From positions 12,090 through 76,089 of the forward strand of contig CAZSDQ010000001.1 in the NCBI GenBank assembly GCA_964605725.1: a stretch of DNA of 64,000 nucleotides, in the 5' to 3' direction. Below are positions 3,025 through 45,600 of this stretch, one piece after another. The DNA comes from an uncultured Candidatus Saccharibacteria bacterium. Lineage in GTDB: Bacteria; Patescibacteriota; WWE3; UBA101185; UBA10185. The notes under the pieces are model-generated. The model saw only the letters and a program-made list of their open reading frames with translations, was not told the DNA's origin and made no database searches. Each line of letters starts with the position of its first letter. The first letter of the stretch is position 1. The position numbers and the translations under genes were made by a program.

Positions 3025-3102
3025 GCCCCCATAGCTCAGCGGATTTAGAGCACTCGTCTTCGGAACGAGGGGTCGGGGGTTCAAATCCCTCTGGGGGCGC
3101 CA
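3025..3102 (+). tRNA. tRNA-Arg (anticodon UCG), CCA encoded
   Basis: Manual cloverleaf: acceptor GCCCCCA/TGGGGGC, D arm GCTC..GAGC, anticodon stem CTCGT/ACGAG with loop CTTCGGA, T arm GGGGG-TTCAAAT-CCCTC, discriminator G then CCA. Confidence 0.9.
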
Positions 3103-3225
3103 TTTGATGTAAAGGTATTGAGCAAGGGATTTGAATGTCGGAGTGAACGAAGTGAAAGAGACGGGGTCGCGAGCTTTACAGATTGTTTGAGCGTAAGCGA
3201 GATAAAATGTGTTAAGACTTGTGAC

Positions 3226-3246
3226 CAAATCCCTCTGGGGGCACCA
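3226..3246 (+). repeat. Duplicate of the tRNA-Arg 3' end (T-loop to CCA)
   Basis: CAAATCCCTCTGGGGGC at 3226-3242 is a 17/17 match to 3082-3098 and is followed by ACCA (GCCA in the gene). The copies are separated by about 125 nt of non-coding sequence. Confidence 0.8.
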
Positions 3247-3539
3247 ATTATTTTTATATTAATATCCAAAATATTATTTTATTTGAGTATAAAAATATTT
3301 TTTATTTAAAATAATTCATTAAATAGTGTAGAAATATCAACAAATAAATATGGTTGTTATACATTGTCGTGTCAATGTATACACAGATACACCATATTGA
3401 CATTTCCATAAATACTCTGCAAAATTTTATTATATTAAAATGAATAAATTTCTGCCCAAAAAAATTTATTTAAATAAAAAATTTATTAGGACACTTCGTT
3501 AGAGAAGGTGTCCTTATTTTTATTAGGAGAAAATTAATA

Positions 3540-3718
3540 ATGATTACAAAAGAAGAAATAAGAAAAAAGTTAAAAGAAGATCCAAATTTTACATTAGAGG
3601 ATGACGCTTCGGATGAAGATTGGGATTTATATTTTGAAGTTAAAGATGAGATAAGTGAAGAAACCGGATCAGATGAACAAGACTCGTGGGAAGAAGATGA
3701 TGACGAGGAAATTATTTA
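3540..3718 (+). pseudogene. Small highly acidic protein, apparently frameshifted near its start
   Basis: AGGAG-N10-ATG at 3540 opens only 6 codons (MITKKK*). The next frame from 3542 is open for 58 codons to TAA 3716-3718 (DYKEEIRKKLKEDPNFTLEDDASDEDWDLYFEVKDEISEETGSDEQDSWEEEDDDEEII) and has no ATG/GTG/TTG. One extra A in the A-run at 3548-3550 would fuse the two. Confidence 0.3.
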
Positions 3719-3775
3719 ATAATTTAGGATTGTGTTTGTTAGGAGTAATTATTTAGCCAAAGGAGGGCCCCTAAG

Positions 3776-3844
3776 ATGGCAGTAAAGAAAAAAGCAGTTA
3801 AAAAAGCTGCACCAAAGAAAAAAACTGTAAAGAAGAAGAAATAA
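3776..3844 (+). CDS. 22-aa lysine-rich micro-ORF (MAVKKKAVKKAAPKKKTVKKKK)
   Basis: SD AAAGGAGGG 8 nt upstream of the ATG. A hairpin plus T-run terminator lies about 20 nt after the stop. Too short for the ORF track. Confidence 0.4.
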   Translation: MAVKKKAVKKAAPKKKTVKKKK

Positions 3845-3862
3845 CGTTTTTTTCGATAAAAT

Positions 3863-3902
3863 AAACAGCGGTCTAAGGATTTTCCAAAGATCGCTGTTTT
3901 CG
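3863..3902 (+). terminator. Rho-independent terminator candidate
   Basis: AAACAGCGGTCT ... AGATCGCTGTTT stem (one mismatch) followed by TTTTCG. Confidence 0.5.
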
Positions 3903-3943
3903 TAATTCAAATAAAATTGGTTAAATAATATTGGTAAATATAT

Positions 3944-3951
3944 TGTATAAT
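3944..3951 (+). promoter_or_regulatory. Extended -10 box TGtATAAT upstream of tRNA-Lys
   Basis: TGTATAAT lies 14 nt upstream of the tRNA 5' end. Similar TATAAT boxes precede tRNA-Leu (4955 region), tRNA-Leu (6853 region), tRNA-Gly (8822 region) and tRNA-Cys (9072 region). Confidence 0.45.
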
Positions 3952-3965
3952 TTGTTGATATTTAT

Positions 3966-4040
3966 GGGGACGTAGCTCAGTGGTAGAGCATTCGGCTCTT
4001 AACCGAAGTGTCGAGGGTTCGAGCCCCTCCGTCCTCACCA
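3966..4040 (+). tRNA. tRNA-Lys (anticodon CUU), CCA encoded
   Basis: Acceptor GGGGACG/CGTCCTC, anticodon stem TTCGG/CCGAA with loop CTCTTAA, T arm GAGGG-TTCGAGC-CCCTC. Confidence 0.9.
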
Positions 4041-4049
4041 GTTAAATTG

Positions 4050-4688
4050 ATGAAATCTAAATACAAAAACAATCTCATATTTGACTTCGACGGAACACTT
4101 GCTGATACTTTAGCATTTACAGTCAATGCTGCCACTGAAATTAATAGAAGCTTACATTTACTAAGTGACGAAAAAATAGATTTTGAAAAATTTAGATCAA
4201 CAGATACGATAGGGTTTTTTAAAGATCTAGAAATTCCCACCTACAAACTAATTTTCTTTCTGTATAAGTATCAAAGGAAACAATCAAAACAAATAGATAA
4301 TGTGAAAGTGTTTGATGAACTTCCTGCAGTTTTAAATCAATTAAAAAATAATGGTATAGGTTTAGGGGTTGCAACTTCTAATTCAACTAAAAACGTTAAA
4401 TTGTTTTTGAAAAATAATAACTTGAATATGTTTAATTTTATTTATAGTTCGATTGACTATTTTCATAAAAATAAAATCTTGGAGAGAGCAATAAAAAAAT
4501 ATGGAATGGAAAAAGAAAATGTAATTTATGTTGGAGATGAAATTAGAGATATAAAAGCAGCAAAAGAAGCTGGTATTAAAATAGCGTCGGTAACTTGGGG
4601 TTATAATTTCGAAAATGTTTTAAATAAATATAAACCTGATTTCATGATAAATCGACCAGAAGAGCTTTTAAATCTCTATTTACCGTAG
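4050..4688 (+). CDS. HAD-superfamily hydrolase (phosphoglycolate phosphatase-like)
   Basis: Start moved to ATG 4050 because the track start at 4008 lies inside tRNA-Lys. HAD motif I FDFDGTLADT, motif III/IV YVGDEIRDIKAAKEAG. Confidence 0.8.
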   Translation: MKSKYKNNLIFDFDGTLADTLAFTVNAATEINRSLHLLSDEKIDFEKFRSTDTIGFFKDLEIPTYKLIFFLYKYQRKQSKQIDNVKVFDELPAVLNQLKNNGIGLGVATSNSTKNVKLFLKNNNLNMFNFIYSSIDYFHKNKILERAIKKYGMEKENVIYVGDEIRDIKAAKEAGIKIASVTWGYNFENVLNKYKPDFMINRPEELLNLYLP

Positions 4689-4732
4689 TATCATGTTCAT
4701 CAATAACAATCTATCTTAAAGAAAGGGTGAGA

Positions 4733-4879
4733 ATGCGTACGATAGACTATGGATGCAGAGAGGCAATGATTTGTTATAAATGGAATCAATGGTTTAAAAA
4801 ATATCACAGACCAAAATTTGCATCAAGACACAGAAGAGAAAAGAAAGGACAGAAAAAGATAGAAAATAAAGAGAGATAG
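4733..4879 (+). CDS. 48-aa basic hypothetical protein
   Basis: MRTIDYGCREAMICYKWNQWFKKYHRPKFASRHRREKKGQKKIENKER. GGGTGAG SD-like element just upstream; a strong terminator hairpin follows. Below the ORF-track size cutoff. Confidence 0.45.
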   Translation: MRTIDYGCREAMICYKWNQWFKKYHRPKFASRHRREKKGQKKIENKER

Positions 4880-4895
4880 GTAAGTTTATAACCAA

Positions 4896-4929
4896 GCTCG
4901 GAATTATTAATTTAAATCCGAGCCTTTTT
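4896..4929 (+). terminator. Rho-independent terminator candidate
   Basis: GCTCGGA ... TCCGAGC stem followed by CTTTTT. Confidence 0.55.
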
Positions 4930-4967
4930 ATGTTATTGAGGATTTTTTTGTATAATGATGTTTATAA

Positions 4968-5052
4968 GCCGGAGTGGTGGAATGGTATACACGCAGTGTT
5001 CAGAACGCTGTGTCCAAAAGACTTGCAGGTTCGAGTCCTGTCTCCGGCACCA
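4968..5052 (+). tRNA. tRNA-Leu (anticodon CAG), long variable arm, CCA encoded
   Basis: Acceptor GCCGGAG/CTCCGGC, anticodon stem CAGTG/CGCTG with loop TTCAGAA, long variable arm, T loop TTCGAGT. Confidence 0.9.
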
Positions 5053-5064
5053 ACTATAAAATTA

Positions 5065-6801
5065 CTAATATTTACAAAAGGTCCTAACAAACATTTTTTC
5101 CCCAATCAAATTATAAATAGGTGTTGTGTATTCCTCACTCATTATTAATCTATCATTTAGATCAAAATCATTGTCTTTTGACTTTAATAGAGAAACATTT
5201 TCTATTCTAGGGTTTGGTAAATGTTTAATTATTATCGGGTGTTCATTAAGATAGTTAAATAATTTAGCTAAGTAATTTCCGTTCCCCTCACTATATTCCT
5301 GAATAAAACATATTGGGTTATAGTCATCAATATTTAATAATTTCATACCACTATAATTATCACGCTCTTCCATTAAGGCAGACTTAATATATACAGAATC
5401 TAAAAAAATATCAGTATTTTTGACCTCACCTGCCCTAGTAATTTCTTCGACCATTTTCCATTTTAAATTCATCTGCCTGTAGTAATCTACAGTAATTAAA
5501 AAGGTAATTGAGGATACTAAAAAGATTATAAAGTACATTATTAAAAGATTTTTATAATTATACTTATTTACTTTTAAAGCCGAATATATAGTAGTAATGA
5601 CAAAAAAATTTAATAAATATCTATCGTAAAATTTGTCTGTGATCAATGCAATTAAATAAAAACTAAGGATCAATATTTCTAGTAATAAACTGGTTTTTGA
5701 AATATGGATTTTAAAATTATGTTTTTCACTAAAAGATTTAATCGATTTTTTAATAATACTTTCGACTATTACTACTATGGATATAGATATAAGAAAGGAT
5801 AGAAGTAATTTAAAAGGAATATTGTTTAGTAGGTTTAGCCGTATATTGTTGAACATTTTTGCATACAAACCCTCCAAGTAAAAAATATTTCCAATTTTAA
5901 ATAAGTTTCCTTCATAAATATATAAACCAACAAAAGCTGAGATTATTCCTATTGATATTTTCTCTTTTCTTTTCAAGTCTATAAATTTACTGATAGTAAA
6001 AGGTAGTAAAATAAAACCAGAGTAAGAGAGATAGTGAATATTAAAAATCCTTCCAAATAGAGATTTAAGACTTGTAAAAAGCATCAGAATATTAAAACTT
6101 TTTGGAAATTCAGGATTAATATATTTTGGATATAGAAATCCAAACGTACTTATAACCACAAAAGGTAATACAATTGCTAAAAAACGCGAAATTTTTCTTT
6201 GAGAAGGTTTGTAATAATCTATAATTAAAAATATCGGAAATAATACAAATCCGTATTGTCTAATTAAGGTGGAAAGGCCTCCAAATATTGAAGAAATAAC
6301 CAAATATCTAATTTTGTCGTTACTTTGAGATTTAATAAAAAAGAAAATTGATAAAAGCCCAAATAATAAAAAATAATTTTCGGTCATGAAAGTCAAAGAG
6401 CTTGCAAAAAAAATTGGGTTAAATGTTATAGATAGAAGACAGGGTAGTATTAATGTTTTTTTTACATTCAGTGTTAATAAAATTTTAAAGATTATATATA
6501 AACATAAAATAGATATGAAAATAGTAAGAAACCTCAATGATACGTAGGAAATACCGAATAAAGCGGACCACAGTAGACCTAAATATCCTTGAAGTATAAA
6601 GGTTGGCGTAATTAATGCACTTTTTTTAAACACCCCTATAGAAAAAGCTCGAACCTGGGTATAGTAGTAGAAATCGTCATTTACAGGATAATTTCCCCAT
6701 GGCTGTACTATTAAAATACTTATTAAGTACAAACTTACTGTAACTAAAAGAGGATATCTAGAAATAAATTCAATGATTTTGCTTAATGTATTTTTGAACA
6801 T
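5065..6801 (-). CDS. Polytopic GT-C-type glycosyltransferase (ArnT/PMT_2-like)
   Basis: 578 aa with more than 10 predicted TM helices. Acidic motif in the first loop (YPVNDDFYYY), as in GT-C/GT39/GT83 enzymes. C-terminal soluble domain. Confidence 0.55.
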   Translation of the reverse strand: MFKNTLSKIIEFISRYPLLVTVSLYLISILIVQPWGNYPVNDDFYYYTQVRAFSIGVFKKSALITPTFILQGYLGLLWSALFGISYVSLRFLTIFISILCLYIIFKILLTLNVKKTLILPCLLSITFNPIFFASSLTFMTENYFLLFGLLSIFFFIKSQSNDKIRYLVISSIFGGLSTLIRQYGFVLFPIFLIIDYYKPSQRKISRFLAIVLPFVVISTFGFLYPKYINPEFPKSFNILMLFTSLKSLFGRIFNIHYLSYSGFILLPFTISKFIDLKRKEKISIGIISAFVGLYIYEGNLFKIGNIFYLEGLYAKMFNNIRLNLLNNIPFKLLLSFLISISIVVIVESIIKKSIKSFSEKHNFKIHISKTSLLLEILILSFYLIALITDKFYDRYLLNFFVITTIYSALKVNKYNYKNLLIMYFIIFLVSSITFLITVDYYRQMNLKWKMVEEITRAGEVKNTDIFLDSVYIKSALMEERDNYSGMKLLNIDDYNPICFIQEYSEGNGNYLAKLFNYLNEHPIIIKHLPNPRIENVSLLKSKDNDFDLNDRLIMSEEYTTPIYNLIGEKMFVRTFCKY

Positions 6802-6870
6802 GTTGATTTTAAGTATTTCTATTATAGTTCATATATCAGTAGAAATTTATAGTATAATTCTAGATGTTAT

Positions 6871-6957
6871 GGGCGGGTGGCGGAATTGGTATACGCGCAA
6901 CGTTGAGGTCGTTGTGGGGTAAAACCCGTGCAGGTTCAACTCCTGTCTCGCCCACCA
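6871..6957 (+). tRNA. tRNA-Leu (anticodon GAG), long variable arm, CCA encoded
   Basis: Acceptor GGGCGGG/CTCGCCC, anticodon stem CAACG/CGTTG with loop TTGAGGT, T loop TTCAACT. Confidence 0.9.
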
Positions 6958-8838: not shown

Positions 8839-8913
8839 GCGACGGTAGTTCAGTGGTAGAATGTCTCCTTGCCAAGGAGAAGGTCGCCGGTTCGAATCCG
8901 GTCCGTCGCTCCA
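8839..8913 (+). tRNA. tRNA-Gly (anticodon GCC), CCA encoded
   Basis: Acceptor GCGACGG/CCGTCGC, anticodon stem TCTCC/GGAGA with loop TTGCCAA. Confidence 0.9.
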
Positions 8914-8963
8914 AGTTTTTGTTTTGAAAAGGTAACAAGTTAGGTTGTACGTTTTTTAGTTAT

Positions 8964-9038
8964 GCGACGGTAGTTCAGTGGTAGAATGTCTCCCTTCCAA
9001 GGAGAAGGTCGCCGGTTCGAATCCGGTCCGTCGCTCCA
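8964..9038 (+). tRNA. tRNA-Gly (anticodon UCC), CCA encoded
   Basis: Identical to the GCC gene except for the anticodon loop (CTTCCAA). Lies 125 nt downstream in tandem. Confidence 0.9.
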
Positions 9039-9093
9039 CTTTTTTATATAATTTTTTCCAAATAATTAAGGTATAATTGAGGCGTTACATACT

Positions 9094-9167
9094 GGCCTGG
9101 TCGCCAAGTGGTAAGGCAAGGGTCTGCAAAACCCTTATCGCGGGTTCGATTCCCGCCCAGGCCTCCA
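9094..9167 (+). tRNA. tRNA-Cys (anticodon GCA), CCA encoded
   Basis: Acceptor GGCCTGG/CCAGGCC, anticodon stem AGGGT/ACCCT with loop CTGCAAA, T loop TTCGATT. Confidence 0.9.
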
Positions 9168-9214
9168 TATTGCTAAAAGTGTGTAATAATTGGTAGAATT
9201 TAGTGTTTAAACAT

Positions 9215-9290
9215 GGGGCGGTAGCCAAGGTGGTCAAGGCACCGGTCTGAAAAACCGGCTATGTGGGTTCGACTCCCACCCTCCCCACCA
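9215..9290 (+). tRNA. tRNA-Phe (anticodon GAA), CCA encoded
   Basis: Anticodon stem CCGGT/ACCGG with loop CTGAAAA, T arm GTGGG-TTCGACT-CCCAC. The acceptor stem has one C-U mismatch. Confidence 0.8.
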
Positions 9291-9342: not shown

Positions 9343-9807
9343 TTACTTGACCAATTTCTTCTCCATGCAGACCATCTCTATATCCCCGAATAGTATATTT
9401 TCTAAGGTTTTAAACCCTAAACTAGTATAAAAACGCTTAGCATTTAAAGTAGCGTTTAAAGATATCTTATTTTTGTTATTTTTTATAAATTCCTTTTCAA
9501 TATATCTATACAATTTCTTACCGTAACCTTTTCCTTGATAATCCGGATCTATCTGTATTTGGTAAAGATTCTGATCTTCCAAATCATATTGAGCAAAGCC
9601 AATTATCTTATTGCTCTTTTTAATAATTATCCAAGAAGTGTTATCAAATTGAGATAGCACATTTTTTTCATTAATTTGCCCTAACCATGACTCAATAACT
9701 TTAGGATCGTAGATATCTGCATTAGTTTCTACAATGCATTTTTTATGTATTATTACGATGTTTTTTATATTCTCTTTTTTTGCTTGGGTGATTATTGAAT
9801 TATTCAT
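9343..9807 (-). CDS. GNAT-family N-acetyltransferase
   Basis: Acetyl-CoA binding motif A QIDPDYQGKGYGKKLYRYIE. About 150 aa, typical GNAT size. Confidence 0.8.
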   Translation of the reverse strand: MNNSIITQAKKENIKNIVIIHKKCIVETNADIYDPKVIESWLGQINEKNVLSQFDNTSWIIIKKSNKIIGFAQYDLEDQNLYQIQIDPDYQGKGYGKKLYRYIEKEFIKNNKNKISLNATLNAKRFYTSLGFKTLENILFGDIEMVCMEKKLVK

Positions 9808-9821
9808 TTATATTTAATGAT

Positions 9822-9873
9822 AAAAAAGATGGGGACGATATACATAGAATTAAAATTCATGTTTAAAGTCCCC
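9822..9873 (-). terminator. Hairpin plus T-run after the small peptide ORF (terminator/attenuator candidate)
   Basis: On the minus strand: GGGGAC ... GTCCCC outer stem with inner AACATGAATT/AATTCTATGT pairing, followed by ATCTTTTTT. Confidence 0.45.
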
Positions 9874-9890
9874 TCTGGTTTGGCCAATAA

Positions 9891-10001
9891 TTAATCACCG
9901 TGCTTTTTCTTGCAACCCCCATCTTGCTTACAACATCCAGGATGGGAATGTCCCGTAACACGAGTTTTATTCTTGGGCCAAGTTACTAACACTTTCTTCA
10001 T
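9891..10001 (-). CDS. 36-aa Cys/His/Lys-rich peptide, candidate RiPP precursor
   Basis: My own translation: MKKVLVTWPKNKTRVTGHSHPGCCKQDGGCKKKHGD*. SD AAGGAGAGGAGG then 7 nt then ATG. It starts 28 nt after the rSAM/SPASM stop on the same strand and is followed by a hairpin and T-run. Absent from the ORF track because of its size. Confidence 0.6.
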   Translation of the reverse strand: MKKVLVTWPKNKTRVTGHSHPGCCKQDGGCKKKHGD

Positions 10002-10029
10002 TATGGTACCTCCTCTCCTTCGTCATGAT

Positions 10030-11289
10030 TTAGAATCGGTCTATATCAACCTCATCTATAACGATTGGGGCAATTCTATCATCTGTAGCTATCAACAGCA
10101 ATAGCTCCGGTATTAGCGTGTGTTGAACTACACATGTGAAATTAGATTTTTTAAGTGGAAAACCATTTTTCCAAATACTAGCCATCGGACATCCACCATG
10201 GCATATCATTCTGAGATTGCAGTTTGAACAACCACCTAATTGATTCACAAAGTGTATATCTTCGAGTTTTTTCTTTTTGTTTAAATCAAATACCAAACCA
10301 TTTTCCACCTTACCGTAGATAAAAATATCAGCGTAAGGATCATTAGGTCTTGCAACTTCTACACAAGATGTAATTAGCCCGTGTGGTGTTAAAACTTTAT
10401 TACCGTTTGGCATTCCGCAGTAAAATTCATTGCTAGGCTCTGATAAAAAACCTGTATCTAACGTTATTTTATATCCTTTGTCTGCAATGTGTTTTATTAC
10501 TTCTATCATTGCTCTGGAAAACTTTATTGGATCAGGTTCCATAGACAAATCTGCTCTTGACACATCAGTAGATAGCGCAGGTTCAATTTTTATACTTTTT
10601 ACACCTAAAGAGCTTACTAAATCTACAGTAGATATAAGCGTATCTAATCCTTCTGACGTAACAATACACTGTACTATAACATCTACTCCTGATTGGATTA
10701 ATTTTTTGATGTTTTCAATTACTATACTTGAGGATCCACTACCATCAGCAAAAGGTCTTTGAATATTTTGCCTTACGCCATCAAATGATACACGAACACC
10801 AGCATTATTTTTAATTAGCCATTCACAAGCATTATTTCCGAAAGTTCCATTGCTAACAACGTTAACTTGGACTTCATCAAATAGTGTTTTTGCGTATTCT
10901 ACAATTTCCAAAACCCTTTCGAAGTATAATAAAGGTTCTCCGCCACCCACTAGAAATAAATCGAGATAATCTCCATCAGAGCTCTCTCGTACGGAATTAA
11001 GAGCTTCTTTTGCTGTTTCAAAGGAGATTAACTCCTTTGATTCTCCTCCTCGTGCGTAGCAATATTCACACCTGAGATTACAATCAAAAGTCACTATAAT
11101 TCCTAAGGAGGCGTTGTTCCTTGAGTGTTCATTTATATTTTCAATGGGAACAGAATAAGCCTCGAACATTAAACTTTCTAAATCCTCATCAGTAGCATCT
11201 AATCCAAATAAGATGTTTCCAGGGTAAACAACGGCAAAGTTTCTTATTCCGGGTAATTTAACAACACACACCTCATTTTTCTCAACCAT
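10030..11289 (-). CDS. Radical SAM / SPASM-domain peptide-modifying enzyme (maturase-like)
   Basis: CX3CX2C = CNLRCEYC at about aa 70. C-terminal 7-Cys SPASM pattern: C-x17-C (with G-x4-C), CSNCNLRMICHGGC (C-x2-C-x5-C-x3-C) and a trailing Cys in FTCVV. SD AAGGAGAGAGAA lies upstream. Confidence 0.9.
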   Translation of the reverse strand: MVEKNEVCVVKLPGIRNFAVVYPGNILFGLDATDEDLESLMFEAYSVPIENINEHSRNNASLGIIVTFDCNLRCEYCYARGGESKELISFETAKEALNSVRESSDGDYLDLFLVGGGEPLLYFERVLEIVEYAKTLFDEVQVNVVSNGTFGNNACEWLIKNNAGVRVSFDGVRQNIQRPFADGSGSSSIVIENIKKLIQSGVDVIVQCIVTSEGLDTLISTVDLVSSLGVKSIKIEPALSTDVSRADLSMEPDPIKFSRAMIEVIKHIADKGYKITLDTGFLSEPSNEFYCGMPNGNKVLTPHGLITSCVEVARPNDPYADIFIYGKVENGLVFDLNKKKKLEDIHFVNQLGGCSNCNLRMICHGGCPMASIWKNGFPLKKSNFTCVVQHTLIPELLLLIATDDRIAPIVIDEVDIDRF

Positions 11290-11354: not shown

Positions 11355-11855
11355 TCAAATCATAGTTACTAACCCAATGTTTTTAGGCCCCTCAAAATCA
11401 AAAGTTACTACCTTATATTTCACACCGTTAGATTCGTAGAATTTGGATATTTCACTAATCATTGCATCTCTTCCTAGTTTTTTATTTTGATTCCAAAAAT
11501 TACAACAAGGTATTAAAATTGTATTCGTCCCTAGAGCGGACTTAGCTACTTCAATTGTGGCTTCATCCGGATGTAAACCAATAACTAGATCGTAATAAGA
11601 TGCGTCTTCGGAGGAAAACTCTTCTTGTAAGTTATCAACTCCTAATAGCGGGTATCCTCTGGGGTCAACCACGGTAGATTTATAGTTATATTTTTTATTT
11701 AACACTCTCGATAACATACCTCTTCCTCCGGCAACATCAGCAATATATTCAATGTTTCTTCCAAATGTCTCAAAAACAAAACCAGCCACAACCTCAAATC
11801 TTTGAGGGTCCCCGTGAAATTTATGTCCTTTATATGTACCACCCTTAGTGCTCAT
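11355..11855 (-). CDS. Putative class I SAM-dependent methyltransferase-like protein
   Basis: Rossmann motif I-like IADVAGGRGMLS (DxGxGxG) followed by an acidic loop (VVDPR). 166 aa. The assignment rests on motifs only. Confidence 0.45.
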   Translation of the reverse strand: MSTKGGTYKGHKFHGDPQRFEVVAGFVFETFGRNIEYIADVAGGRGMLSRVLNKKYNYKSTVVDPRGYPLLGVDNLQEEFSSEDASYYDLVIGLHPDEATIEVAKSALGTNTILIPCCNFWNQNKKLGRDAMISEISKFYESNGVKYKVVTFDFEGPKNIGLVTMI

Positions 11856-15250: not shown

Positions 15251-16423
15251 ATGAAGAAATTTACAGTTATCTTAGTCTTGACATTAACAACAGCTATCGT
15301 GATAGCTTTGTTTTATAAAATTAACCAAGACCCCCCACTTGATACTAAATTTGTGCAAAATGTGAGAGATAACGAGCAAAATACAAATAACTTAACTCCA
15401 AAAACTGAAGGAGAGAGCAGTACCAGCGGTTCTGAGTTGATACCCGATTTGAAGGTAAAATCAAACTCAGTAAATTTAAAAGAGCCTGGAGAATACGCAC
15501 AACTAATCAACAACTATCATGTATACCAATCATTCAATAACTGTGGTCCGGCAACTCTGTCGATGGCGATGGCTTGGTATGGGGTAAAAGTCTCTCAAGA
15601 AGAACTAGCTAAAAATATGAGACCGTTTCAACATCCAAAGGGGGACAACGATGATAAAACCATATTTACCTATGAATTTGTAAATTGGGCTAATGAGTAT
15701 GGTCTTGAGGCTATTGGCAGAGTTAACGGCGACATAGAACTTCTTAAAAAATTTATTTCAAACGGTATTCCAGTTGTGGTAAAAACTTGGTTAAAACCAA
15801 ACGAGGATATTGGTCATTTTAGATTTGTGACTGGGTACGATGAAAATAAACAGATAATAGTTCAAGATGATTCCTACGAAGGTCCTAATAAAAAGATTGG
15901 TTATTATGACTTTTTAAGCATGTGGCAGGTCTTTAATTACAGTTATGTGGTTGTGTACACATCTGATTTAAAAGATAAAGTAGAGTCAATAATTGGTGAA
16001 GAGGTAGATGAGAAAATAGCTTGGGAAAATGCCTTAAAGAGAGCGGAGGAGGAAACTTTAAAAGATGAAAATAATCTATACCCGCATTTCAACATATCAA
16101 CAGCTTCATACCATTTAGGTGATTACGAAAGATCTGTAAAAGAGTATGAAAAAATAGAAAACAATTTACCTAGAAGAATGCTTTGGTACCAGATAGAGCC
16201 AATTAAAGCTTATCAAGAGTTAGGAGATTACGACAAAGTTTTTGAAATAATTGAAAAAATACTTGAAAATGGTAATAGATCATTTTCCGAGCTTTACGTT
16301 ATTAGAGGGGAGATTTATCTTGAGCAGGGTTTAAAAGTAAAAGCCAAAGAGCAGTTTGAACTTGCTTTGAAGTACAATGAAAATCAAAAAACCACTATTA
16401 CCGTATTTAGGCAATTGGAGTAA
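15251..16423 (+). CDS. Peptidase C39-like domain protein with C-terminal TPR repeats, membrane anchored
   Basis: N-terminal TM. Catalytic-Cys context QSFNNCGPATLSMAMAWYG and a downstream GHF His, typical of C39-like/BtrH-like papain-fold domains. TPR-like helices at the C-terminus. Confidence 0.6.
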   Translation: MKKFTVILVLTLTTAIVIALFYKINQDPPLDTKFVQNVRDNEQNTNNLTPKTEGESSTSGSELIPDLKVKSNSVNLKEPGEYAQLINNYHVYQSFNNCGPATLSMAMAWYGVKVSQEELAKNMRPFQHPKGDNDDKTIFTYEFVNWANEYGLEAIGRVNGDIELLKKFISNGIPVVVKTWLKPNEDIGHFRFVTGYDENKQIIVQDDSYEGPNKKIGYYDFLSMWQVFNYSYVVVYTSDLKDKVESIIGEEVDEKIAWENALKRAEEETLKDENNLYPHFNISTASYHLGDYERSVKEYEKIENNLPRRMLWYQIEPIKAYQELGDYDKVFEIIEKILENGNRSFSELYVIRGEIYLEQGLKVKAKEQFELALKYNENQKTTITVFRQLE

Positions 16424-39681: not shown

Positions 39682-42600
39682 CTAAATTACCAAATAAATA
39701 TCAATGTTTCCCATATCACTTCTAAAATAGATCTTTGAATCATCCATTTTGTTTCCATTTACAAAAAGACCTTTTTTCTCACCTCTTTCAACTTTTATAC
39801 TGTAGTAGGTATTGTTGTGAGAGTAGATCATTTCATATTCGGTCCATTCTTTTGGTAAAACTGGCTCTAATGTAAAATAGTCCTGCTTAACCTTAAAACC
39901 TAAAATATCCTCGATTGCTACCCGATACAACCAACCTGCAGATCCTGTATACCAACTCCAGCCACCTCTAGCTAAATGTTGCGGGTTAGAATAAATATCT
40001 CCAGCCATAACATACGGCTCGGATTTATAAATATTTACGCTATCTCTATCAAGAGTTCTATTTATAGGATTCAATGTATTAAACAACTCATAGGCTTTAT
40101 CGCCATTTTTCATCATCGCGTAAGCTTTCATTGCCCAGACAGCTCCGTGGGTATACTGACCGCCGTTTTCCCTAATACCTTCGGGGTAACCCTGAATATA
40201 ACCGGGGAATGGAGTAGATTCTTTAAAAGGCGGCGTCAGCAGTTTTATAATTTTGTTCTTCTTATCCTCAAGATATTTTTCGTGGCTCAACATAGCTTTT
40301 TCAAGCTTCCCTGGTGACGCCGCCCCTGATATTACAGCCCAAGATTGCGAAATAGAGTCTATAGTGCATTCATTGTTTAAATGAGTTCCCAAGGGGCTTC
40401 CATCATCAAAAAAGGCCCTTTTGTACCATTCTCCGTCCCAACCATTTTCATTTACATTATTCTTAAGTTGTTCAACTACAGACCGCAATCTTTCGATCTC
40501 ATTTCTTCTGTCTGTTTTTTCAAGAATCTTTATAAAATTCTCAATTACAGTTATTAAAAACCAAGCAAGCCACACACTTTCTCCCTTACCTTCATCCCCG
40601 ACACTACTTAACCCGTCGTTCCAATCTCCTGAACCTATTAGAGGTAATCCGTGTGACCCGAATCGTAATGATCTATTTATGGCCCTTATACAGTGGTCCA
40701 ACACATTACCTCTTTCATCTGAAACGTTGGGTATGCCGTACAAACTTTCTTCATGAGATTGCAGTTGTTGCATTTCTAAATACGGTACCTCTATTTTTAA
40801 AATATCCATATCTCCGGTTTTTTCAATGTAGTAAGCTACAACATACGGCAACCAAAGCAAATCATCACTAATTTTTGTCCTAACCCCCGCCCCCGAAGGA
40901 TAGTGCCACCAATGTTGGACATCCCCTTCTTTAAATTGATGCGCACAACACAATGTTAGGTGATCTCTAACTTTACTGGGATTACAATAAACCAATGACA
41001 TCACATCCTGAAGCTGGTCTCTAAATCCGAAAGCACCTGCTGCTTGATAAAAGGCTGTTTTTCCGTCAACTCTACAAGATAATACTTGATATAACATCCA
41101 ATTATTTATCAAGTAATTAAATTTTGTATCCGGAGTATTAATTTTGATCTTAGACTTTACTTGATTCCATTTTTCCTGAATGTCTTTAACACTTTGTTCA
41201 ACTGCCTCTAGATTAGTATATTTATCTATTAATCTATTAACGTTGTCTACGTTATCATCCTGACCCAATATAAATAACAGGCTTACTTTAGAATTTTTAG
41301 GAATTTCTACTTCCGTAGTAATAACACCACATTTATCAGAAACTGATTTAAATCCTGTAATTCCTCTCACATTTTTATAAATCCATAAAGGCACCTTTTT
41401 AGAATTGCCCATTCCAAAGAATTTTTTTCTATCAGAAGTTGCTGCCACAACAGGTCTGTTTGTTGCCATAAAAGCTGTTTGATTCGAAAAATTATTGCTA
41501 TAAGGATTTTGGGCTAGGATTGACTGTCTAACAGGGTCAAATTCAATTTTTAAATTCTCTTGATTAGTATACCTGTCTTCTCCCAATGTAAATTCCACAT
41601 AATATGTGGCTTCCATTGTTTTTGTGTATTTACTATTGTTTTTTAGTGTTAATTTAAGAATCTTAACCGGGTCATTAATATCAACTAAAACTTTTAAGGT
41701 GTGATCTACGTCAAAACTTTCACCTTTGTATTCGGTATAACCTTGGGAATGAGTTACTCTAAAATTACCACTTTTGTTGGGGAGCGGAGTAGCGCTAATT
41801 ACCTTTTCTGAATCAGCATCTTTTAGATATATTATTTCGCCCTGAATATCACTTACAAAATCATTAGACCACGGGGATATCTTATTCATCTGACTATTAA
41901 TATTCCACGTGTAACCTAAACCCGATTCTGTTACCATAGTACCGAATCTTTCGTTAGCAATTACATTAGACCACGGGAGTGGGGTAGGGTTCTCTGCTGA
42001 AATATCCATAACATAGTTCTCACCATCTTTTGAAAATCCGCCTATGCCGTTATAGAATTCTAAACCTTCTTTAAAATCTACTGCGGGTACTATACTTTCA
42101 ACATAGTCCTCGTAAACAACATCCTTAATACCTACGGATTCAGGTTCAGAATATTTAGACGCAAGGTTTATCTGGTCATCAAGTGATCCTAAAGAAGAAT
42201 CTAATACAACCTTAGCCAATGACAGTATCGTGTACCTTTCTTCTAAAGTCATATTAATAACATTGAGAACATATACGCCTGAATCTTTGTATGGGTGAGA
42301 TAACGAATTTTCTACAACCTCATAAACATCCTGCTCCAATGTTTCCTCGTAGCTAATCTTCTCGTCTACTATAAAAACCAGGTCAAAGTTAAATCTCAAC
42401 ATTCTCAAATATTCATGTAATAGAACTAAGTTTCTAACTAGCTCAATATTTTTACTATTTACCTTAACGGCAAGTATCCTATTTTCACCGGATATTGAAA
42501 ATCTATATAAAAGACTTCTACCGGTAGTATGATCAATACTTTGAGTCTCTTTTAATCTGTAATCCGGATAAACCAATCTTGAAAATAGTTTTTGAAATAG

Positions 42601-45600
42601 TATTTCCTGACGTACATCTATTCCCAAATGAGTTCTTTTTGCTTCTATATAATGAGTGTTAAGATAACGGAGCTCGTTCATCTGCTCACCGGTAAATAAA
42701 AGCTCCCTCGCTGCTTTAATTTCATGGATATTGTTGGCGTAACCGTATATAAAGTGTATTTTTTTGGATTCACCAGGTTTTAATGAAATCTTGTATCTTA
42801 TACTAAAAATGGGGTCCAGAACTGTTCCAATACTATTTGTTAATTCGGAGACCATAGCTGCAGGGTTTTGAATGTGTTTAATCCTCCCTATAAAATTTTG
42901 CCTGCTTGTTTCATAAGAATCTGTTTTTAAATTTACATCTTCAGAAAAACCAAAATGAAAAGCATATTTTTCAATATCTCTAATGTATCGTTTCTTTCTT
43001 TTAGCAATTAGTACACCGTTTTCGTAAGCAGTTTCAATAAAAAGTTTATTAAAAACAGGATGTGATAGACCTGCTTTTAAATCATCAAGCATTATCTCGC
43101 TGTATGTAGTAATTTCATACTCTTTACTGTTATCCGATTGATTAGTAAGTGTAAGCTCTCTTATCTCAAAGTTTTTTTCAGGTGGAACAAATATGTTTAA
43201 ATTAGTTAAAGTCTTCTTATCTAACCTACTAAATTCAGCATATTCTGTGTAGAACCTAACCTCATAATTATCCGGTTTTACTAAGGTTGGTTGGTATGTA
43301 GCAGACCAAAAATAACTATTTTCTACATCCTTTATAAAAATATGGTTCCCCGAATCATCTAAAGTAAGATCTTCATTATATCTATTAATAAACGTATCTC
43401 GGAATTTGCTGAACCCAGCTCCGGAATTTGAAATCATTACGGAATATTTTCCATTACCGTATAGTTGGGCTATTGGGAATAAGGTATTTGGAGTATTTGA
43501 GTACCTCACTCTTTCTTTTTCATACCTTCTAACAGTACTTAATTTTCTATCAAATCCGTATTGATTAGCTTCAACTATATTTGATACTTGAGGTATTTTT
43601 TCATCTAATAAAATGTCACAAGACTTTATATAATCGTTGCTATGCAGTCTGCCCACCATTATTCTATTATTAAGTGCGTTATTGATTGCTACCAAACTCA
43701 TACCTTGGTGGTGAGCAGTATAAATTTTTACATTTTCTCCAACTTTCGGTTCGTTTGTAGATCTGTTAAAATCAACAGCTTCGTAAAAACCGTAAGGGCC
43801 TAAAACACCATCATCTTCCAATCTATGCAGGTTTCTCTCTGATTCTTCGGGAGCAATCATTAATGATAGAAATGATGAATAAGGAGATACTACCAAATCT
43901 CTTGAGTCATATCTTTTAAGTGCTATCTCAGGAACTCCCATCATCTTATATTGATAGTTAGAATCAAAGTCGAATGCATCAAAATTAGATTCTGAGATTC
44001 CCCACGGAATACCGTTTTCTTCCGCATATTTTTTTTGAATATAAAATATTTGCTCGGTAGTTTGACTCAAGAAAGTATTTTTCTTTTCATTTAACAAGAG
44101 CGCCGGTAGAAGATATTCAAACATAGTCCCACCCCATGACATAAGGTAAAACTTTCCTTTCCTGATTCTTACCGGACGTGATAGATTGAACCAATGCTTA
44201 ACCTCAACTTGATCTAAAGCTATAGCCACATAACTAGCTATTCTTGCCTCCGACGCTAAGATATCGTAGTAACTAGAATCTCTCTGTCTTGCAGAGACGT
44301 TATAACCAATAGAAAACACCGACATGTTTTTATCATAAAGAAATGTAAAATCAGTTTTTTGATAAATTCTTCTTGAAAGTTTTGATAGTTGGAGAAACTT
44401 CTTGCTAATTTCAAGGTTAGACTTTTTAAGTGCACTAGACATTGACGAACAAGCTTCCTCAGCTAACATCAGAGCAGCAACAAAATTACCACTATCTGCT
44501 GTGGATATATATGGGTTAAGTGGTTCCAATTTTTTCAAGTCATACCAGTTAAACAAATGTCCTCTATATTTTTTTAATCTATAAACAATATTAAGAGTGT
44601 TCCATAATCTTGAAACGTAAGTTTCTAAATCTATTATTTTCAAGTCATATGCAGAGATCAGGGATAGTATGTAAAAACCAATATTTGTCGGGGACGTTCT
44701 ATAAGTAATTTTTTTTGAAGGTGTTAGTTGTATATTGTCAGGCGGGAGATGATTACTTTCTTCATTTACATGCTGTTCAAAAAATGACCAAATCATTTTT
44801 GAATAACTAAGCATTTTATCCTTATCTTTGAGCCTGTCTGAAATTTGTATTTGTTTATACGGTTTACTAATTACAAAAACAAATATAGGAGACAAGATCC
44901 AAATAAATAAGGTAAAAATATTTAAAACAGTTAGTTTTCCCAAAACAAATAAAGAAAACAGAATAATTAGATTTAAATACACCGCCTTTGAAGTCAGGAA
45001 GTATCCAAGGATATTATTTTCACTTTTAACATGCTCTGCCTCACTGTGTGTCATCCATTCAAGTAGATTTCTATGGGTAATGAGCCTTTTTAAAGTTCTA
45101 AAAATTGAGAGTATTTTATTTATAGCAGTAACAGATGCCATAATAAAAAATGAGGAAGTAAGTATAATTTTCTGCAACATAAAAGAGAGAGTTAAACGTA
45201 TTTTTTCTGAAATAGGAAGTTTATGTACCCAATATCTCTTTATAGAAAAAAATTCAAACAATAGATGTCCAAAAAATAAGACAAGGATATAGATATTAAT
45301 TGCTTCAGAAGATGAAAAAAACCAGTTTATATAAAGTAAAATAATAAATATCGGTACTACCAAACTTCTTCTAAGATTATCTATAATCATCCACAAAGAC
45401 ATCATATCCAAGGGATTTTTTGCTTTCGTACCGTTAGCAAGAGGTATCATAGGGCATAACCACGGTAATAATTGCCAGTCACCTCTTACCCATCTGTTAT
45501 CTCTATTAACATAACTTTTATATGAAGTAGGAAAATCTTCTACTAAGCTGGTATCTGACAAAAATCCGGATTTTGCAAAGCAACTTTCTATCAAGTCGTG

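What the first reader, a model, noticed from the sequence alone, without database searches (positions are those of the whole stretch)
9891..10001. Composition of the candidate precursor suggests crosslinking or metal binding
The 36-aa product has 8 Lys, 3 His, 3 Cys (CC-x5-C), 5 Gly and one Trp. The C-terminal half, GHSHPGCCKQDGGCKKKHGD, clusters His and Cys in a way that could chelate metal. Alternatively the Cys thiols could serve as donors for rSAM-installed thioethers, as in ranthipeptides and sactipeptides. The N-terminal part contains W8-P9-K10. This is a Trp-x-Lys spacing like the W3-S4-K5 pair that the rSAM/SPASM enzyme DarE joins in darobactin, and it has the same residue types as the Lys-Trp link of streptide. 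Which part is leader and which is core cannot be told from sequence.
Basis: inference. Interest (0 to 1): 0.6.

Follow-up and report, generated by a model that had tools for sequence, protein, structure and literature searches.

The report
Undescribed Cys-Cys peptide beside radical-SAM maturase

Summary
The ORF at 9891..10001 (-) encodes exactly the peptide described. It has a GGAGG ribosome-binding site and lies 28 nt downstream of a 419-aa radical SAM/SPASM gene.

About 110 homologous peptides (32 clusters at 50% identity) sit beside orthologues of that enzyme in Patescibacteria and in Nano-/Woesearchaeota. None has a name or a Pfam/NCBIfam model. Codon changes are mostly synonymous, so the ORF is under protein-level selection.

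Conservation across the family:
- **Invariant or nearly so:** G-C-C (all), Gln two residues after CC (103/110), His or Glu two residues before (84/26), and an N-terminal h-x-h-x-Trp strand.
- **Not conserved:** Lys10 of W-x-K (8/102), His18, and, in 39/110 peptides that stop right after CC-x-Q, the third Cys and the KKHG tail.

The enzyme's closest solved relative is CteB, a thioether-forming maturase. It has the same 3+4 auxiliary-cluster cysteine spacing, which leaves an iron site open for a substrate Cys.

Best reading: N-terminal leader and C-terminal core, with a Cys-derived thioether installed by the enzyme. The acceptor residue is unknown and the chemistry is untested.

A TlyA rRNA methyltransferase gene adjoins the pair in most lineages. 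In the window's clade a GNAT acetyltransferase does instead.

The parts
9891..10001 (-). 36-aa precursor-like peptide gene (MKKVLVTWPKNKTRVTGHSHPGCCKQDGGCKKKHGD plus stop); class A, short-linker form of the family
   Evidence: Translation. Homologues lie next to orthologous enzymes. Codon changes show purifying selection.
9978..10001 (-). Residues 1-8, MKKVLVTW: conserved alternating-hydrophobic motif ending in Trp; inferred leader or recognition strand
   Evidence: Trp is present in 102/110 homologues and Phe in 5. Its distance to the CC motif varies from 12 to 33 residues. Alignments A2 and A5. The leader role is an inference.
9894..9953 (-). Residues 17-36, GHSHPGCCKQDGGCKKKHGD: inferred core region
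   Evidence: The conserved block G-x-[AS]-[HE]-[PS]-G-C-C-x-Q is followed by the class-A tail GGC-x-KKHG.
9924..9944 (-). Residues 20-26, H-P-G-C-C-K-Q: the near-universal motif of the family (GCC invariant; Q26 is Gln in 103/110; H20 is His in 84 and Glu in 26)
   Evidence: Position statistics over 110 homologues. The motif was located at 9930..9944.
10009..10013 (-). Shine-Dalgarno GGAGG, 7 nt upstream of the ATG
   Evidence: Read directly from the sequence.
10030..11289 (-). 419-aa radical SAM/SPASM enzyme, the inferred maturase. Radical SAM cluster Cys are C70, C74, C77. SPASM Cys are C291, C309, C354, C357, C363, C367, C386. A small N-terminal three-strand plus helix domain spans residues 8-46.
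   Evidence: Pfam Radical_SAM hit. NCBIfam best hits are PapB, nif11-like peptide maturase and SCIFF maturase, all below cut-off. Invariant Cys in 38 homologues. Best PDB match by sequence is CteB, E 2.4e-29. AlphaFold2 model pLDDT 93.5. Foldseek best match is CteB, TM 0.72-0.75.
9822..9876 (-). Stable hairpin followed by a U-run just after the peptide stop codon; possible intrinsic terminator or attenuator before the GNAT gene
   Evidence: RNA fold gives -20 kcal/mol, z = -3.35, and 0 of 200 shuffles fold as well. The simple terminator scan did not flag it; the hairpin's central part is longer than the 3-8 nt loop that scan allows.
9343..9807 (-). 154-aa GNAT acetyltransferase, conserved immediately downstream of the peptide in this clade; possible tailoring or immunity gene
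   Evidence: Pfam Acetyltransf_10/1/7 hits. Orthologues at 43-52% identity sit in the same position in L009, L010 and L089, and GNAT genes occupy that position in L174/L175, while other neighbours differ.

Best explanation
The ORF encodes the substrate peptide of the radical SAM/SPASM enzyme encoded just upstream. Together they form a two-gene cassette of the RiPP type (ribosomally synthesised, post-translationally modified peptide). The N-terminal strand MKKVLVTW acts as the leader, which docks on the enzyme's small N-terminal beta-sheet domain. The C-terminal part, built around H-P-G-C-C-K-Q, is the core. One of the two invariant cysteines binds through its thiolate to the open iron site of auxiliary cluster 1. 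The 5'-deoxyadenosyl radical abstracts a hydrogen atom from a nearby carbon, and a thioether ring closes, as in CteB and PapB. The most likely acceptor is the nearly invariant Gln two residues after the CC pair, but an alpha-carbon in the G-x-[AS]-[HE]-[PS]-G segment is also possible. In the window's class, a third Cys (C30) and the KKHG tail may allow a second link or metal binding. The GNAT downstream may acetylate the Lys-rich product or protect the producer.

Shown: the gene is real, the peptide and enzyme co-occur, the conservation pattern is as described, and the enzyme has a CteB-like fold and cysteine pattern.

Inferred: the substrate relationship, the leader/core assignment, the thioether chemistry, the acceptor residue and the GNAT role.
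For: Peptide and enzyme are adjacent in every sufficiently complete related locus. In bacteria the peptide is downstream. In archaeal-type loci it is upstream and overlaps the enzyme gene. In L169-171 the pair stands alone between transposase genes, which shows the two genes are the minimal unit.

GCC is invariant, Gln is at +2 in 103/110 and His/Glu at -2 in 84/26. The Trp motif sits at a variable distance of 12-33 residues.

The enzyme has the CxxxCxxC motif plus exactly seven invariant SPASM Cys and no eighth. Their spacing (C291-18-C309; C354-x2-C357-x5-C363-x3-C367-19-C386) equals that of CteB C344/C362 and C400/C403/C409/C413/C432. In CteB, auxiliary cluster 1 has three Cys ligands, and Se-EXAFS on PapB and Tte1186 showed direct substrate Se-Fe binding (PMC10177961).

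CteB is the best PDB match by sequence (E 2.4e-29, against 3e-15 for anSME) and by fold (TM 0.72-0.75 over the full length). The top NCBIfam hits are Cys-peptide maturases: PapB, nif11-like peptide maturase, SCIFF maturase, CcpM. The model shows an N-terminal three-strand plus helix domain.
Against: No chemistry was tested. All named maturase models score far below their cut-offs (PapB 128 bits against 340; SCIFF maturase 95 against 425), so the enzyme belongs to no characterised family, and SPASM enzymes of similar sequence can catalyse different reactions. The N-terminal domain gives no PqqD/RRE hit (RRE = RiPP recognition element). No protease or exporter is conserved nearby, which is unusual for a secreted RiPP. 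The CX3D motif present in the window peptide (C23...D27) is not conserved, and no acceptor can be assigned.
Confidence: 0.55

Rival explanations
1. The peptide is mainly a metal-binding peptide (metallochaperone or metallophore-like). H20, C23, C24, and in class A also C30 and H34, chelate Zn, Ni, Cu or Fe. The radical SAM enzyme either does not act on it or only prepares it.
For: The conserved His/Glu alternation two residues before CC (84 His, 26 Glu) is typical of interchangeable metal ligands. The vicinal Cys pair is invariant. Class A offers up to five ligands. No exporter or protease is conserved, which fits an intracellular role.
Against: Adjacency to a CteB-like maturase is strict. H18 is not conserved (3/110). 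H34 becomes Phe or Tyr in class B. C30 and H34 are absent in the 39/110 peptides that end after CC-x-Q. The nearly invariant Gln and the N-terminal Trp strand have no obvious role in metal binding.
Confidence: 0.12
2. The peptide is a scaffold for a small redox cofactor or small molecule, as with PQQ, mycofactocin or pearlins. The C-terminal CC-x-Q end is modified and then excised for use inside the cell.
For: In 39/110 homologues the peptide ends exactly two residues after CC, so the conserved motif is C-terminal, as in MftA. The hosts are genome-reduced symbionts that rarely carry antibiotic clusters. No exporter is conserved. The family is found in both Bacteria and Archaea.
Against: No peptidase, oxidoreductase or other pathway gene is conserved beside the pair. 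The MftC model scores far below its cut-off and PqqE is only a distant structural match. Classes A and B carry conserved C-terminal extensions that a C-terminal excision model does not need. The cassette decays repeatedly (split or truncated enzyme genes in L015, L096/97 and L177), which fits an accessory trait better than a core cofactor.
Confidence: 0.12
3. The enzyme makes a carbon-carbon or ether cross-link on Trp8 (Trp-Lys as in darobactin or streptide, or a three-residue cyclophane).
For: Trp8 is conserved (102/110) and W-P-K is present in the window peptide.
Against: Lys at W+2 occurs in only 8/102 homologues; that position is mostly Ala, Gly, Glu or Pro. Phe replaces Trp in 5 homologues. 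The DynA model scores 58.8 against a cut-off of 450, GrrM/OscB 52.9 against 310 and AmcB 54.2 against 425. SuiB is a poorer structural match (TM 0.55) than CteB.
Confidence: 0.03
4. The peptide is not the enzyme's substrate. The radical SAM enzyme works with the neighbouring TlyA on RNA or the ribosome, and the small ORF is a ribosome-associated or regulatory mini-protein.
For: A TlyA-family rRNA methyltransferase gene adjoins the pair in about 15 distinct loci across Bacteria and Archaea. In L099 it lies between the peptide and enzyme genes. The class A peptide is very basic.
Against: The enzyme's fold, SPASM domain and cysteine pattern are those of peptide maturases. The window clade, L012 and L169-171 lack tlyA next to the pair. 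Closely related TlyA genes occur without the cassette. Class C peptides are acidic, not basic.
Confidence: 0.08

Closest known systems
CteB/CteA (SCIFF maturase and thermocellin precursor, Clostridium thermocellum; PDB 5WGG/5WHY) and its relative Tte1186
   Same: Best PDB match by sequence (E 2.4e-29) and by fold (TM 0.72-0.75 over the full length). Same CxxxCxxC motif and identical spacing of the seven SPASM Cys, which implies a three-Cys auxiliary cluster 1 with an open site for the substrate Cys. Short Cys-containing peptide encoded next to the enzyme.
   Different: About 19% identity. The SCIFF maturase model scores 95 bits against a cut-off of 425. The peptide is unrelated to SCIFF: no NCBIfam hit, 2-3 Cys rather than six, and a CC-x-Q motif. 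The N-terminal domain is much shorter (about 50 residues against about 90-100 before the radical SAM cluster motif, C70 against CteB C104) with no RRE sequence signal. Hosts are Patescibacteria and DPANN rather than Clostridia.
PapB/PapA (freyrasin ranthipeptide, Paenibacillus)
   Same: Best-scoring NCBIfam model (NF047865, E 4.6e-37). Thioether-forming SPASM maturase with the same Cys pattern (PMC10177961).
   Different: 128 bits against a cut-off of 340. PapA carries six CX3D repeats. Here C23-x3-D27 exists in the window peptide, but that position is Asp in only 23/110 homologues and is absent in class C.
Anaerobic sulfatase-maturating enzyme (anSME)
   Same: Second-best structural and sequence match. 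It acts on a Cys or Ser in a peptide motif.
   Different: From my own knowledge of the anSME structure, both its auxiliary clusters are fully Cys-ligated through an extra upstream Cys. No eighth conserved Cys exists here. No sulfatase gene was identified among the neighbouring genes examined.
DarE/darobactin and StrB-SuiB/streptide (Trp-Lys cross-links)
   Same: Radical SAM/SPASM enzyme plus a short peptide containing Trp and Lys.
   Different: W-x-K is not conserved (8/102). The DynA model scores 58.8 against 450. SuiB TM 0.55.

Membership tests
Radical SAM/SPASM peptide maturase (generic class) | CxxxCxxC radical SAM cluster motif within a Radical_SAM domain | tested here: met
   CNLRCEYC at C70/C74/C77, invariant in 38 homologues. 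Pfam PF04055 at 64 bits against a cut-off of 29.5.
Radical SAM/SPASM peptide maturase (generic class) | Seven-Cys SPASM motif C-x9-15-G-x4-C ... C-x2-C-x5-C-x3-C ... C | tested here: met
   C291-x12-G304-x4-C309, C354-x2-C357-x5-C363-x3-C367, and C386, all invariant. The Pfam SPASM model itself did not hit.
Radical SAM/SPASM peptide maturase (generic class) | Short substrate peptide encoded adjacent and co-conserved | tested here: met
   Homologous peptide found next to the enzyme in all sufficiently complete related loci.
Radical SAM/SPASM peptide maturase (generic class) | N-terminal RiPP recognition element (PqqD-like winged helix) | tested here: inconclusive
   The AlphaFold2 model shows three strands plus one helix at residues 8-46, and the Foldseek alignment to CteB spans the full length. 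No PqqD or other Pfam hit to the N-terminal 65 residues of five homologues even at E<=10.
CteB/PapB-type thioether (ranthipeptide or sactipeptide) synthases | Auxiliary cluster 1 ligated by only three Cys, leaving a site for the substrate Cys | tested here: met
   Cys spacing identical to CteB C344/C362/C413 and C400/C403/C409/C432 (PMC10177961), with no eighth conserved Cys. This is a sequence-level inference; cluster ligation was not observed.
CteB/PapB-type thioether (ranthipeptide or sactipeptide) synthases | Score above the curated cut-off of PapB (NF047865), SCIFF maturase (TIGR03974) or another named maturase model | tested here: not met
   PapB 128 against 340; SCIFF maturase 95.4 against 425; CcpM 79 against 500; StsB 62 against 625.
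CteB/PapB-type thioether (ranthipeptide or sactipeptide) synthases | Cys sulfur to carbon thioether in the product (to the alpha-carbon for sactipeptides, to a beta- or gamma-carbon for ranthipeptides) | not testable with these tools
   Requires MS/MS and NMR of the modified peptide.
SCIFF peptides (six Cys in forty-five) | Match to the SCIFF precursor model, six Cys in about 45 residues | tested here: not met
   No NCBIfam or Pfam hit for five family peptides even at E<=10. The peptides have 2-4 Cys.
Darobactin/dynobactin-type or streptide-type Trp-Lys cross-linked peptides | Conserved Trp-x-Lys (or Lys...Trp) pair in the core | tested here: not met
   Lys at W+2 in 8/102 homologues. The Trp lies in the N-terminal strand at a variable distance from the core.
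Darobactin/dynobactin-type or streptide-type Trp-Lys cross-linked peptides | Enzyme matches the DarE/DynA or StrB/SuiB families | tested here: not met
   DynA 58.8 against 450. SuiB TM 0.55-0.58, rmsd about 11 A.
Cys/His metal-binding peptides | A conserved set of at least three or four metal-ligand residues | tested here: inconclusive
   Only [H/E]-x-x-C-C is universal. The third Cys is present in 71/110. The C-terminal His occurs only in class A (41/110). H18 is His in 3/110. Metal binding itself is not testable here.
TlyA family rRNA (cytidine-2'-O)-methyltransferase (the neighbouring gene in related loci, not in the window) | Score above the TIGR00478 cut-off; S4 plus FtsJ domains | tested here: met
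   Five neighbour proteins score 187-239 bits against a cut-off of 185.8. PF01479 plus PF01728.

The most novel reading that the evidence does not exclude
The peptide, radical SAM enzyme and tlyA form a functional module shared by ultra-small episymbiotic Bacteria (Patescibacteria) and Archaea (DPANN). The cross-linked CC-x-Q peptide acts on the ribosome at or near the TlyA-methylated h44/H69 bridge, where the peptide antibiotics capreomycin and viomycin bind. 2'-O-methylation by TlyA, or acetylation by the GNAT in the window's clade, tunes sensitivity or protects the producer. That would make it the first ribosome-directed modified peptide of these lineages, possibly used on the host cell.
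Probability: 0.08. Interest if true: 0.85.

Novelty: new variant of a known kind. Interest (0 to 1): 0.55.

Why it matters
Patescibacteria and DPANN archaea have tiny genomes and are usually reported to carry few or no natural-product gene clusters. This window contains a compact peptide-plus-maturase cassette with three notable properties:
- It is conserved across both groups, and so across the two prokaryotic domains.
- It has no name in Pfam or NCBIfam, and no paper in the searched literature describes it.
- Its precursor motif, a vicinal Cys-Cys followed by x-Gln, matches no characterised sactipeptide or ranthipeptide.

The cassette is only two genes and about 1.4 kb, so it can be tested directly by co-expression. 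That could reveal a new small thioether ring topology and give a first handle on what modified peptides do for obligate episymbionts. The repeated placement next to tlyA hints at a link to the ribosome, which is worth testing.

Tried and rejected
- **Trp-x-Lys cross-link (darobactin or streptide).** Rejected on conservation and enzyme model scores.
- **CX3D ranthipeptide motif as in PapA.** C23-x3-D27 is present in the window peptide, but the Asp is not conserved and is absent in class C.
- **TlyA as a dedicated immunity gene that travels only with the cassette.** Three long DPANN contigs carry closely related TlyA genes (51-58% identity) without an intact cassette, and one of them has a truncated enzyme remnant. 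TlyA is therefore a resident gene. Adjacency is real, but dedication is rejected.
- **The 166-aa methyltransferase-like gene upstream (11355..11855) as part of the system.** It is not conserved in L009, L010, L089 or other related loci.
- **Peptidase_C39-like gene at 15251..16423 as the leader protease.** It is on the opposite strand and is not conserved next to the cassette elsewhere.
- **RRE detection by sequence.** No hit.
- **Literature searches.** Searches for the HPGCC motif and for SPASM, radical SAM, RiPP or ranthipeptide together with Patescibacteria, CPR or DPANN taxa found nothing relevant.
- **Ribosomal protein L36 resemblance** (size, basic charge, Cys/His). Considered from memory only. 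The CxxC...C...H pattern is not shared, so it was not pursued.
Full report
**1. Observation.**
Window 9891..10001 on the minus strand translates to MKKVLVTWPKNKTRVTGHSHPGCCKQDGGCKKKHGD. A GGAGG Shine-Dalgarno (10009..10013) sits 7 nt before the ATG. The ORF begins 28 nt after the stop of a 419-aa ORF on the same strand (10030..11289). That ORF carries CNLRCEYC and a Pfam Radical_SAM domain. Downstream on the same strand is a 154-aa GNAT acetyltransferase (9343..9807). Between the peptide stop and the GNAT start there is a stable hairpin followed by a U-run (9822..9876; -20 kcal/mol, z = -3.35). This may be a terminator or attenuator.

**2. The ORF is a real gene and belongs to a family.**
The identical enzyme occurs on many metagenomic contigs and on a GenBank MAG labelled 'Patescibacteria group bacterium'. 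The 36-aa ORF was called by gene finders on four of the eight contigs shown. I fetched loci encoding enzyme homologues from genome and metagenome collections and scanned their flanks.

- Every sufficiently complete locus whose enzyme is at least about 32% identical carries a homologous small ORF beside it.
- Examples are L009 MKKVAVRWTKRQKRIVGRSHPGCCAQGGGCTKKHGSK, L089 MKRVVVTWPKKMGKKRIVGHAHPGCCTKDGGCGKKHGG, and L091 MKKIVIQWAAQKPNDSGKQSRRLVGAAHPGCCKKDGGCGKKHG.
- A profile search of 5.8 billion proteins returned about 110 peptide clusters. All are 'hypothetical' or unnamed.
- An exhaustive HMM scan of 1.84 billion representatives returned only 32 clusters at 50% identity. The family is therefore small and has essentially been seen in full.
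- No Pfam or NCBIfam model matches any class, even at E<=10.
- At the DNA level the 18-codon core differs from L009 at 22 of 54 positions, with 13 synonymous and 4 non-synonymous codon changes. Eight further loci give similar ratios. This is clear purifying selection on the protein.
- In GenBank the GNAT and the enzyme have consecutive accessions (MBP7785715.1 and MBP7785716.1), so the peptide appears not to be annotated there.

**3. Anatomy of the family.**
There are three classes.

- **Class A** (41 clusters, including the window): h-x-h-x-W, a linker, then [VT]-G-x-[AS]-H-[PS]-G-C-C-x-Q-x-G-G-(G)-C-x-K-K-H-G.
- **Class B** (26 clusters; source names include Gottesmanbacteria and Vogelbacteria): ...W...G-x-Q-S-R-Q-M-M-G-A-A-E-S-G-C-C-R-Q-x-G-S-P-C-S-x-K-K-[FY]-S.
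- **Class C** (39 clusters; includes Nanoarchaeota and Woesearchaeota MAGs): ...W...D-D-G-K-Q-S-x-x-L-T-G-A-[AS]-H-P-G-C-C-K-Q, then stop. The peptide ends two residues after the Cys pair.

Position statistics over the 110 clusters:

| Position | Residues |
|---|---|
| G-C-C | invariant in all 110 (one extra sequence has C-C-C) |
| +2 after CC | Gln 103, Lys 7 (Glu in two extra sequences) |
| -2 before the G of GCC | His 84, Glu 26 |
| -1 | Pro 76, Ser 33 |
| -5 | Gly 97 |
| Trp of the N-terminal motif | present in 102 (Phe in 5; the other 3 are truncated or fused ORFs) |
| Distance from Trp to the G of GCC | 12 to 33 residues |
| W+2 | Lys in only 8 of 102 |
| -4 (H18 in the window) | His in 3 of 110 |

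The third Cys and the KKHG tail are absent in all of class C. The tail His is Phe or Tyr in class B.

The His cluster and W-x-K do not. The pattern is a conserved N-terminal strand at variable distance, N-terminal extensions of variable length, and a conserved C-terminal block. This is what is expected for an N-terminal leader and a C-terminal core. One distant locus (L098) has an MKKILIKW start followed by an unrelated C-terminus. That is weak, single-case support for modularity.

**4. The enzyme.**
An alignment of 38 homologues (36-72% identity) shows invariant C70/C74/C77 plus exactly seven further invariant Cys: C291, C309, C354, C357, C363, C367 and C386. They are arranged as the canonical SPASM motif, and there is no eighth conserved Cys.

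- All named NCBIfam maturase models hit only below their cut-offs. The best are PapB (128 against 340), the nif11-like peptide maturase, the SCIFF maturase, CcpM, a ScfB-related model and the CXXX-repeat maturase. These are mostly maturases of Cys-rich or thioether-linked peptides.
- Against PDB sequences the best match is CteB (5WGG, E 2.4e-29), well ahead of anSME (3e-15).
- An AlphaFold2 model is confident (pLDDT 93.5, pTM 0.91). It shows a small N-terminal domain of three strands and a helix (residues 8-46) before the barrel.
- Foldseek against the PDB again ranks CteB first (TM 0.72-0.75 over the full length). It is followed by anSME, ChlB, SuiB and TigE.
- According to PMC10177961, CteB binds the radical SAM cluster with C104/C108/C111. 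It binds auxiliary cluster 1 with only three Cys (C344, C362, C413) and auxiliary cluster 2 with four (C400, C403, C409, C432). In PapB and Tte1186 a selenocysteine-substituted substrate binds iron directly, most likely at auxiliary cluster 1.
- The window enzyme reproduces these spacings exactly: 18 residues between the first two Cys, then x2, x5 and x3, then 19 residues.

This fits a mechanism in which an invariant substrate Cys ligates the open iron of auxiliary cluster 1, but it does not prove it. The N-terminal domain gives no PqqD/RRE hit by sequence, so calling it an RRE rests on the model only.

**5. Most likely mechanism (inference).**
The leader strand (V4, V6 and W8 on one face) docks on the N-terminal sheet. 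The core enters the barrel. C23 or C24 binds auxiliary cluster 1. Hydrogen abstraction at a nearby carbon is followed by C-S bond formation.

The acceptor cannot be assigned by computation. The nearly invariant Gln two residues after CC is the C-terminal residue in class C, and its only substitutes are Lys and Glu, which also have beta and gamma methylenes. It is my first candidate. An alpha-carbon link within G-x-[AS]-[HE]-[PS]-G is the alternative.

My confidence that the peptide is this enzyme's substrate is about 0.8. My confidence that the modification is a Cys-derived thioether is about 0.5.

**6. Genomic context.**
All-against-all clustering of neighbouring ORFs in 18 related loci gave only three shared families: the enzyme, a TlyA-like protein (11 loci) and the GNAT (4 loci).

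*TlyA.*
- A wider scan found TlyA immediately adjacent in about 15 distinct loci with G+C from 25% to 58%. It found none next to the roughly 140 more distant radical SAM loci.
- The gene order is enzyme-peptide-tlyA in bacterial class A loci. It is peptide-enzyme-tlyA, with overlapping genes, in archaeal-type loci (L014, L015, L095, L172). It is peptide-tlyA-enzyme in L099, and tlyA is convergent in L013 and L096/97.
- These proteins pass the TIGR00478 cut-off for the TlyA family and have S4 plus FtsJ domains.
- I tested whether this TlyA is dedicated to the cassette. Three long DPANN contigs carry TlyA at 51-58% identity to that of L014 and lack an intact cassette. One of them (L177) has a 192-aa remnant of the enzyme's SPASM half directly upstream of tlyA.
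- TlyA is therefore a resident gene. The cassette tends to sit beside it and decays in some lineages. Split enzyme genes also occur in L015 and L096/97.
- Whether the adjacency is functional or historical remains open.

*Window clade and minimal unit.*
- The window has no tlyA within 64 kb. In its clade (window, L009, L010, L089) an orthologous GNAT follows the peptide while other neighbours differ, and L174/175 carry GNAT genes in the same position.
- In L169-171 the pair stands alone between DDE transposase genes.
- No protease or exporter is conserved. The product may therefore act inside the cell, or be released by general machinery.

**7. Comparison with what is known.**
By mechanism, the closest systems are the CteB/Tte1186 (SCIFF) and PapB (freyrasin) thioether synthases. 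By membership, the enzyme fails every curated family cut-off and the peptide matches no curated precursor family. I therefore file it only under the generic class 'radical SAM/SPASM maturase with adjacent precursor'. Searches of the available literature found nothing that describes it. The searches covered the motif itself and combinations of SPASM, radical SAM, RiPP or ranthipeptide with Patescibacteria, CPR or DPANN names.

**8. Verdict.**

This is an undescribed precursor/maturase family with a CC-x-Q core. By source labels it is concentrated in genome-reduced Patescibacteria and DPANN archaea. Two MAG labels, 'Bacilli' and 'Azospirillaceae', are outliers that I did not verify.

It is a new variant of a known kind and is moderately interesting. 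A further point worth following up is the recurring placement next to tlyA.

Noticed in passing
Related loci: L011 5381-6187, L014 5136-5861, L090 5386-6186, L099 617-1333, L172 5411-6115 and others (not in the window): A TlyA-family rRNA 2'-O-methyltransferase gene (S4 plus FtsJ domains) lies directly next to the peptide/enzyme pair in about 15 distinct loci from Bacteria and Archaea. In L099 it lies between the two genes. It was not found next to more distant radical SAM loci. Closely related TlyA genes also occur without the cassette, so it is not a dedicated partner.
   Followed up: yes
L177 2426-3004; L015 3905-4363 and 4390-5157; L096 3412-4065 and 4138-4800: The enzyme gene is truncated (L177: only the SPASM half remains, upstream of tlyA) or split into two ORFs (L015, L096/97). 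This suggests repeated decay of the cassette, although assembly errors are not excluded for the split cases.
   Followed up: partly
window 9343-9807 (-); L009 5458-5931, L010 4689-5180, L089 5476-5967, L174 4175-5174: A GNAT acetyltransferase (two in tandem in L174/175) always follows the peptide in the window's clade, while the other neighbours differ. Its best NCBIfam hit is RimI-like but far below the cut-off.
   Followed up: partly
L169 768-1484 and 4432-6640; L170 and L171 4632-5479: The most frequently recovered family member (P0122, listed in 95 blocks of the contig collection) sits between DDE-type transposase genes in DNA of 55-60% G+C. This hints that the two-gene cassette is mobile.
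   Followed up: no
window 9822-9876 (-): A stable hairpin plus U-run lies right after the peptide stop codon (z = -3.35). The simple terminator scan did not report it.
   Followed up: partly
window 8839-9290 (+), also 3025-6957: Four tRNA genes (Gly-GCC, Gly-UCC, Cys-GCA, Phe-GAA) are packed just beyond the GNAT gene, and four more tRNA genes lie within 6 kb. The cassette therefore sits at the edge of a tRNA-rich stretch.
   Followed up: no
window 39682-47745 (-): A very long ORF of 2687 aa. It was not examined.
   Followed up: no
window 11355-11855 (-): A 166-aa ORF just upstream of the enzyme has a class I methyltransferase-like DVAGGRG motif and only a weak Pfam hit (Methyltransf_32, E 0.0027). 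It is present in the same-species contigs but not next to the cassette in other lineages.
   Followed up: partly
L106 5159-5386 and 5434-5565: A more distant enzyme homologue (31% identity) is followed by two small Cys-rich ORFs. One of them (…KPGCCFDERGRFLNGVCPKKFF…) echoes the PGCC…C-P-KK-F pattern but lacks the Gln.
   Followed up: no
L098 1410-1559: Downstream of a 34%-identical enzyme lies a peptide that starts MKKILIKW like the family leader but continues with an unrelated, CC-less C-terminus. It may be a divergent core or a decayed gene.
   Followed up: no
L096 7-1389 and 5888-7339 (same in L097): Two further radical SAM genes, about 22% identical to the window enzyme, flank the class B cassette in this locus.
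   Followed up: no
L011 (JBMNEQ010000001.1, labelled Bacilli) and L012 (JANQJV010000297.1, labelled Azospirillaceae): Two genome records that carry the cassette have taxonomic labels outside Patescibacteria and DPANN. L011 has 26% G+C and L012 has 58%. The labels were not checked.
   Followed up: no
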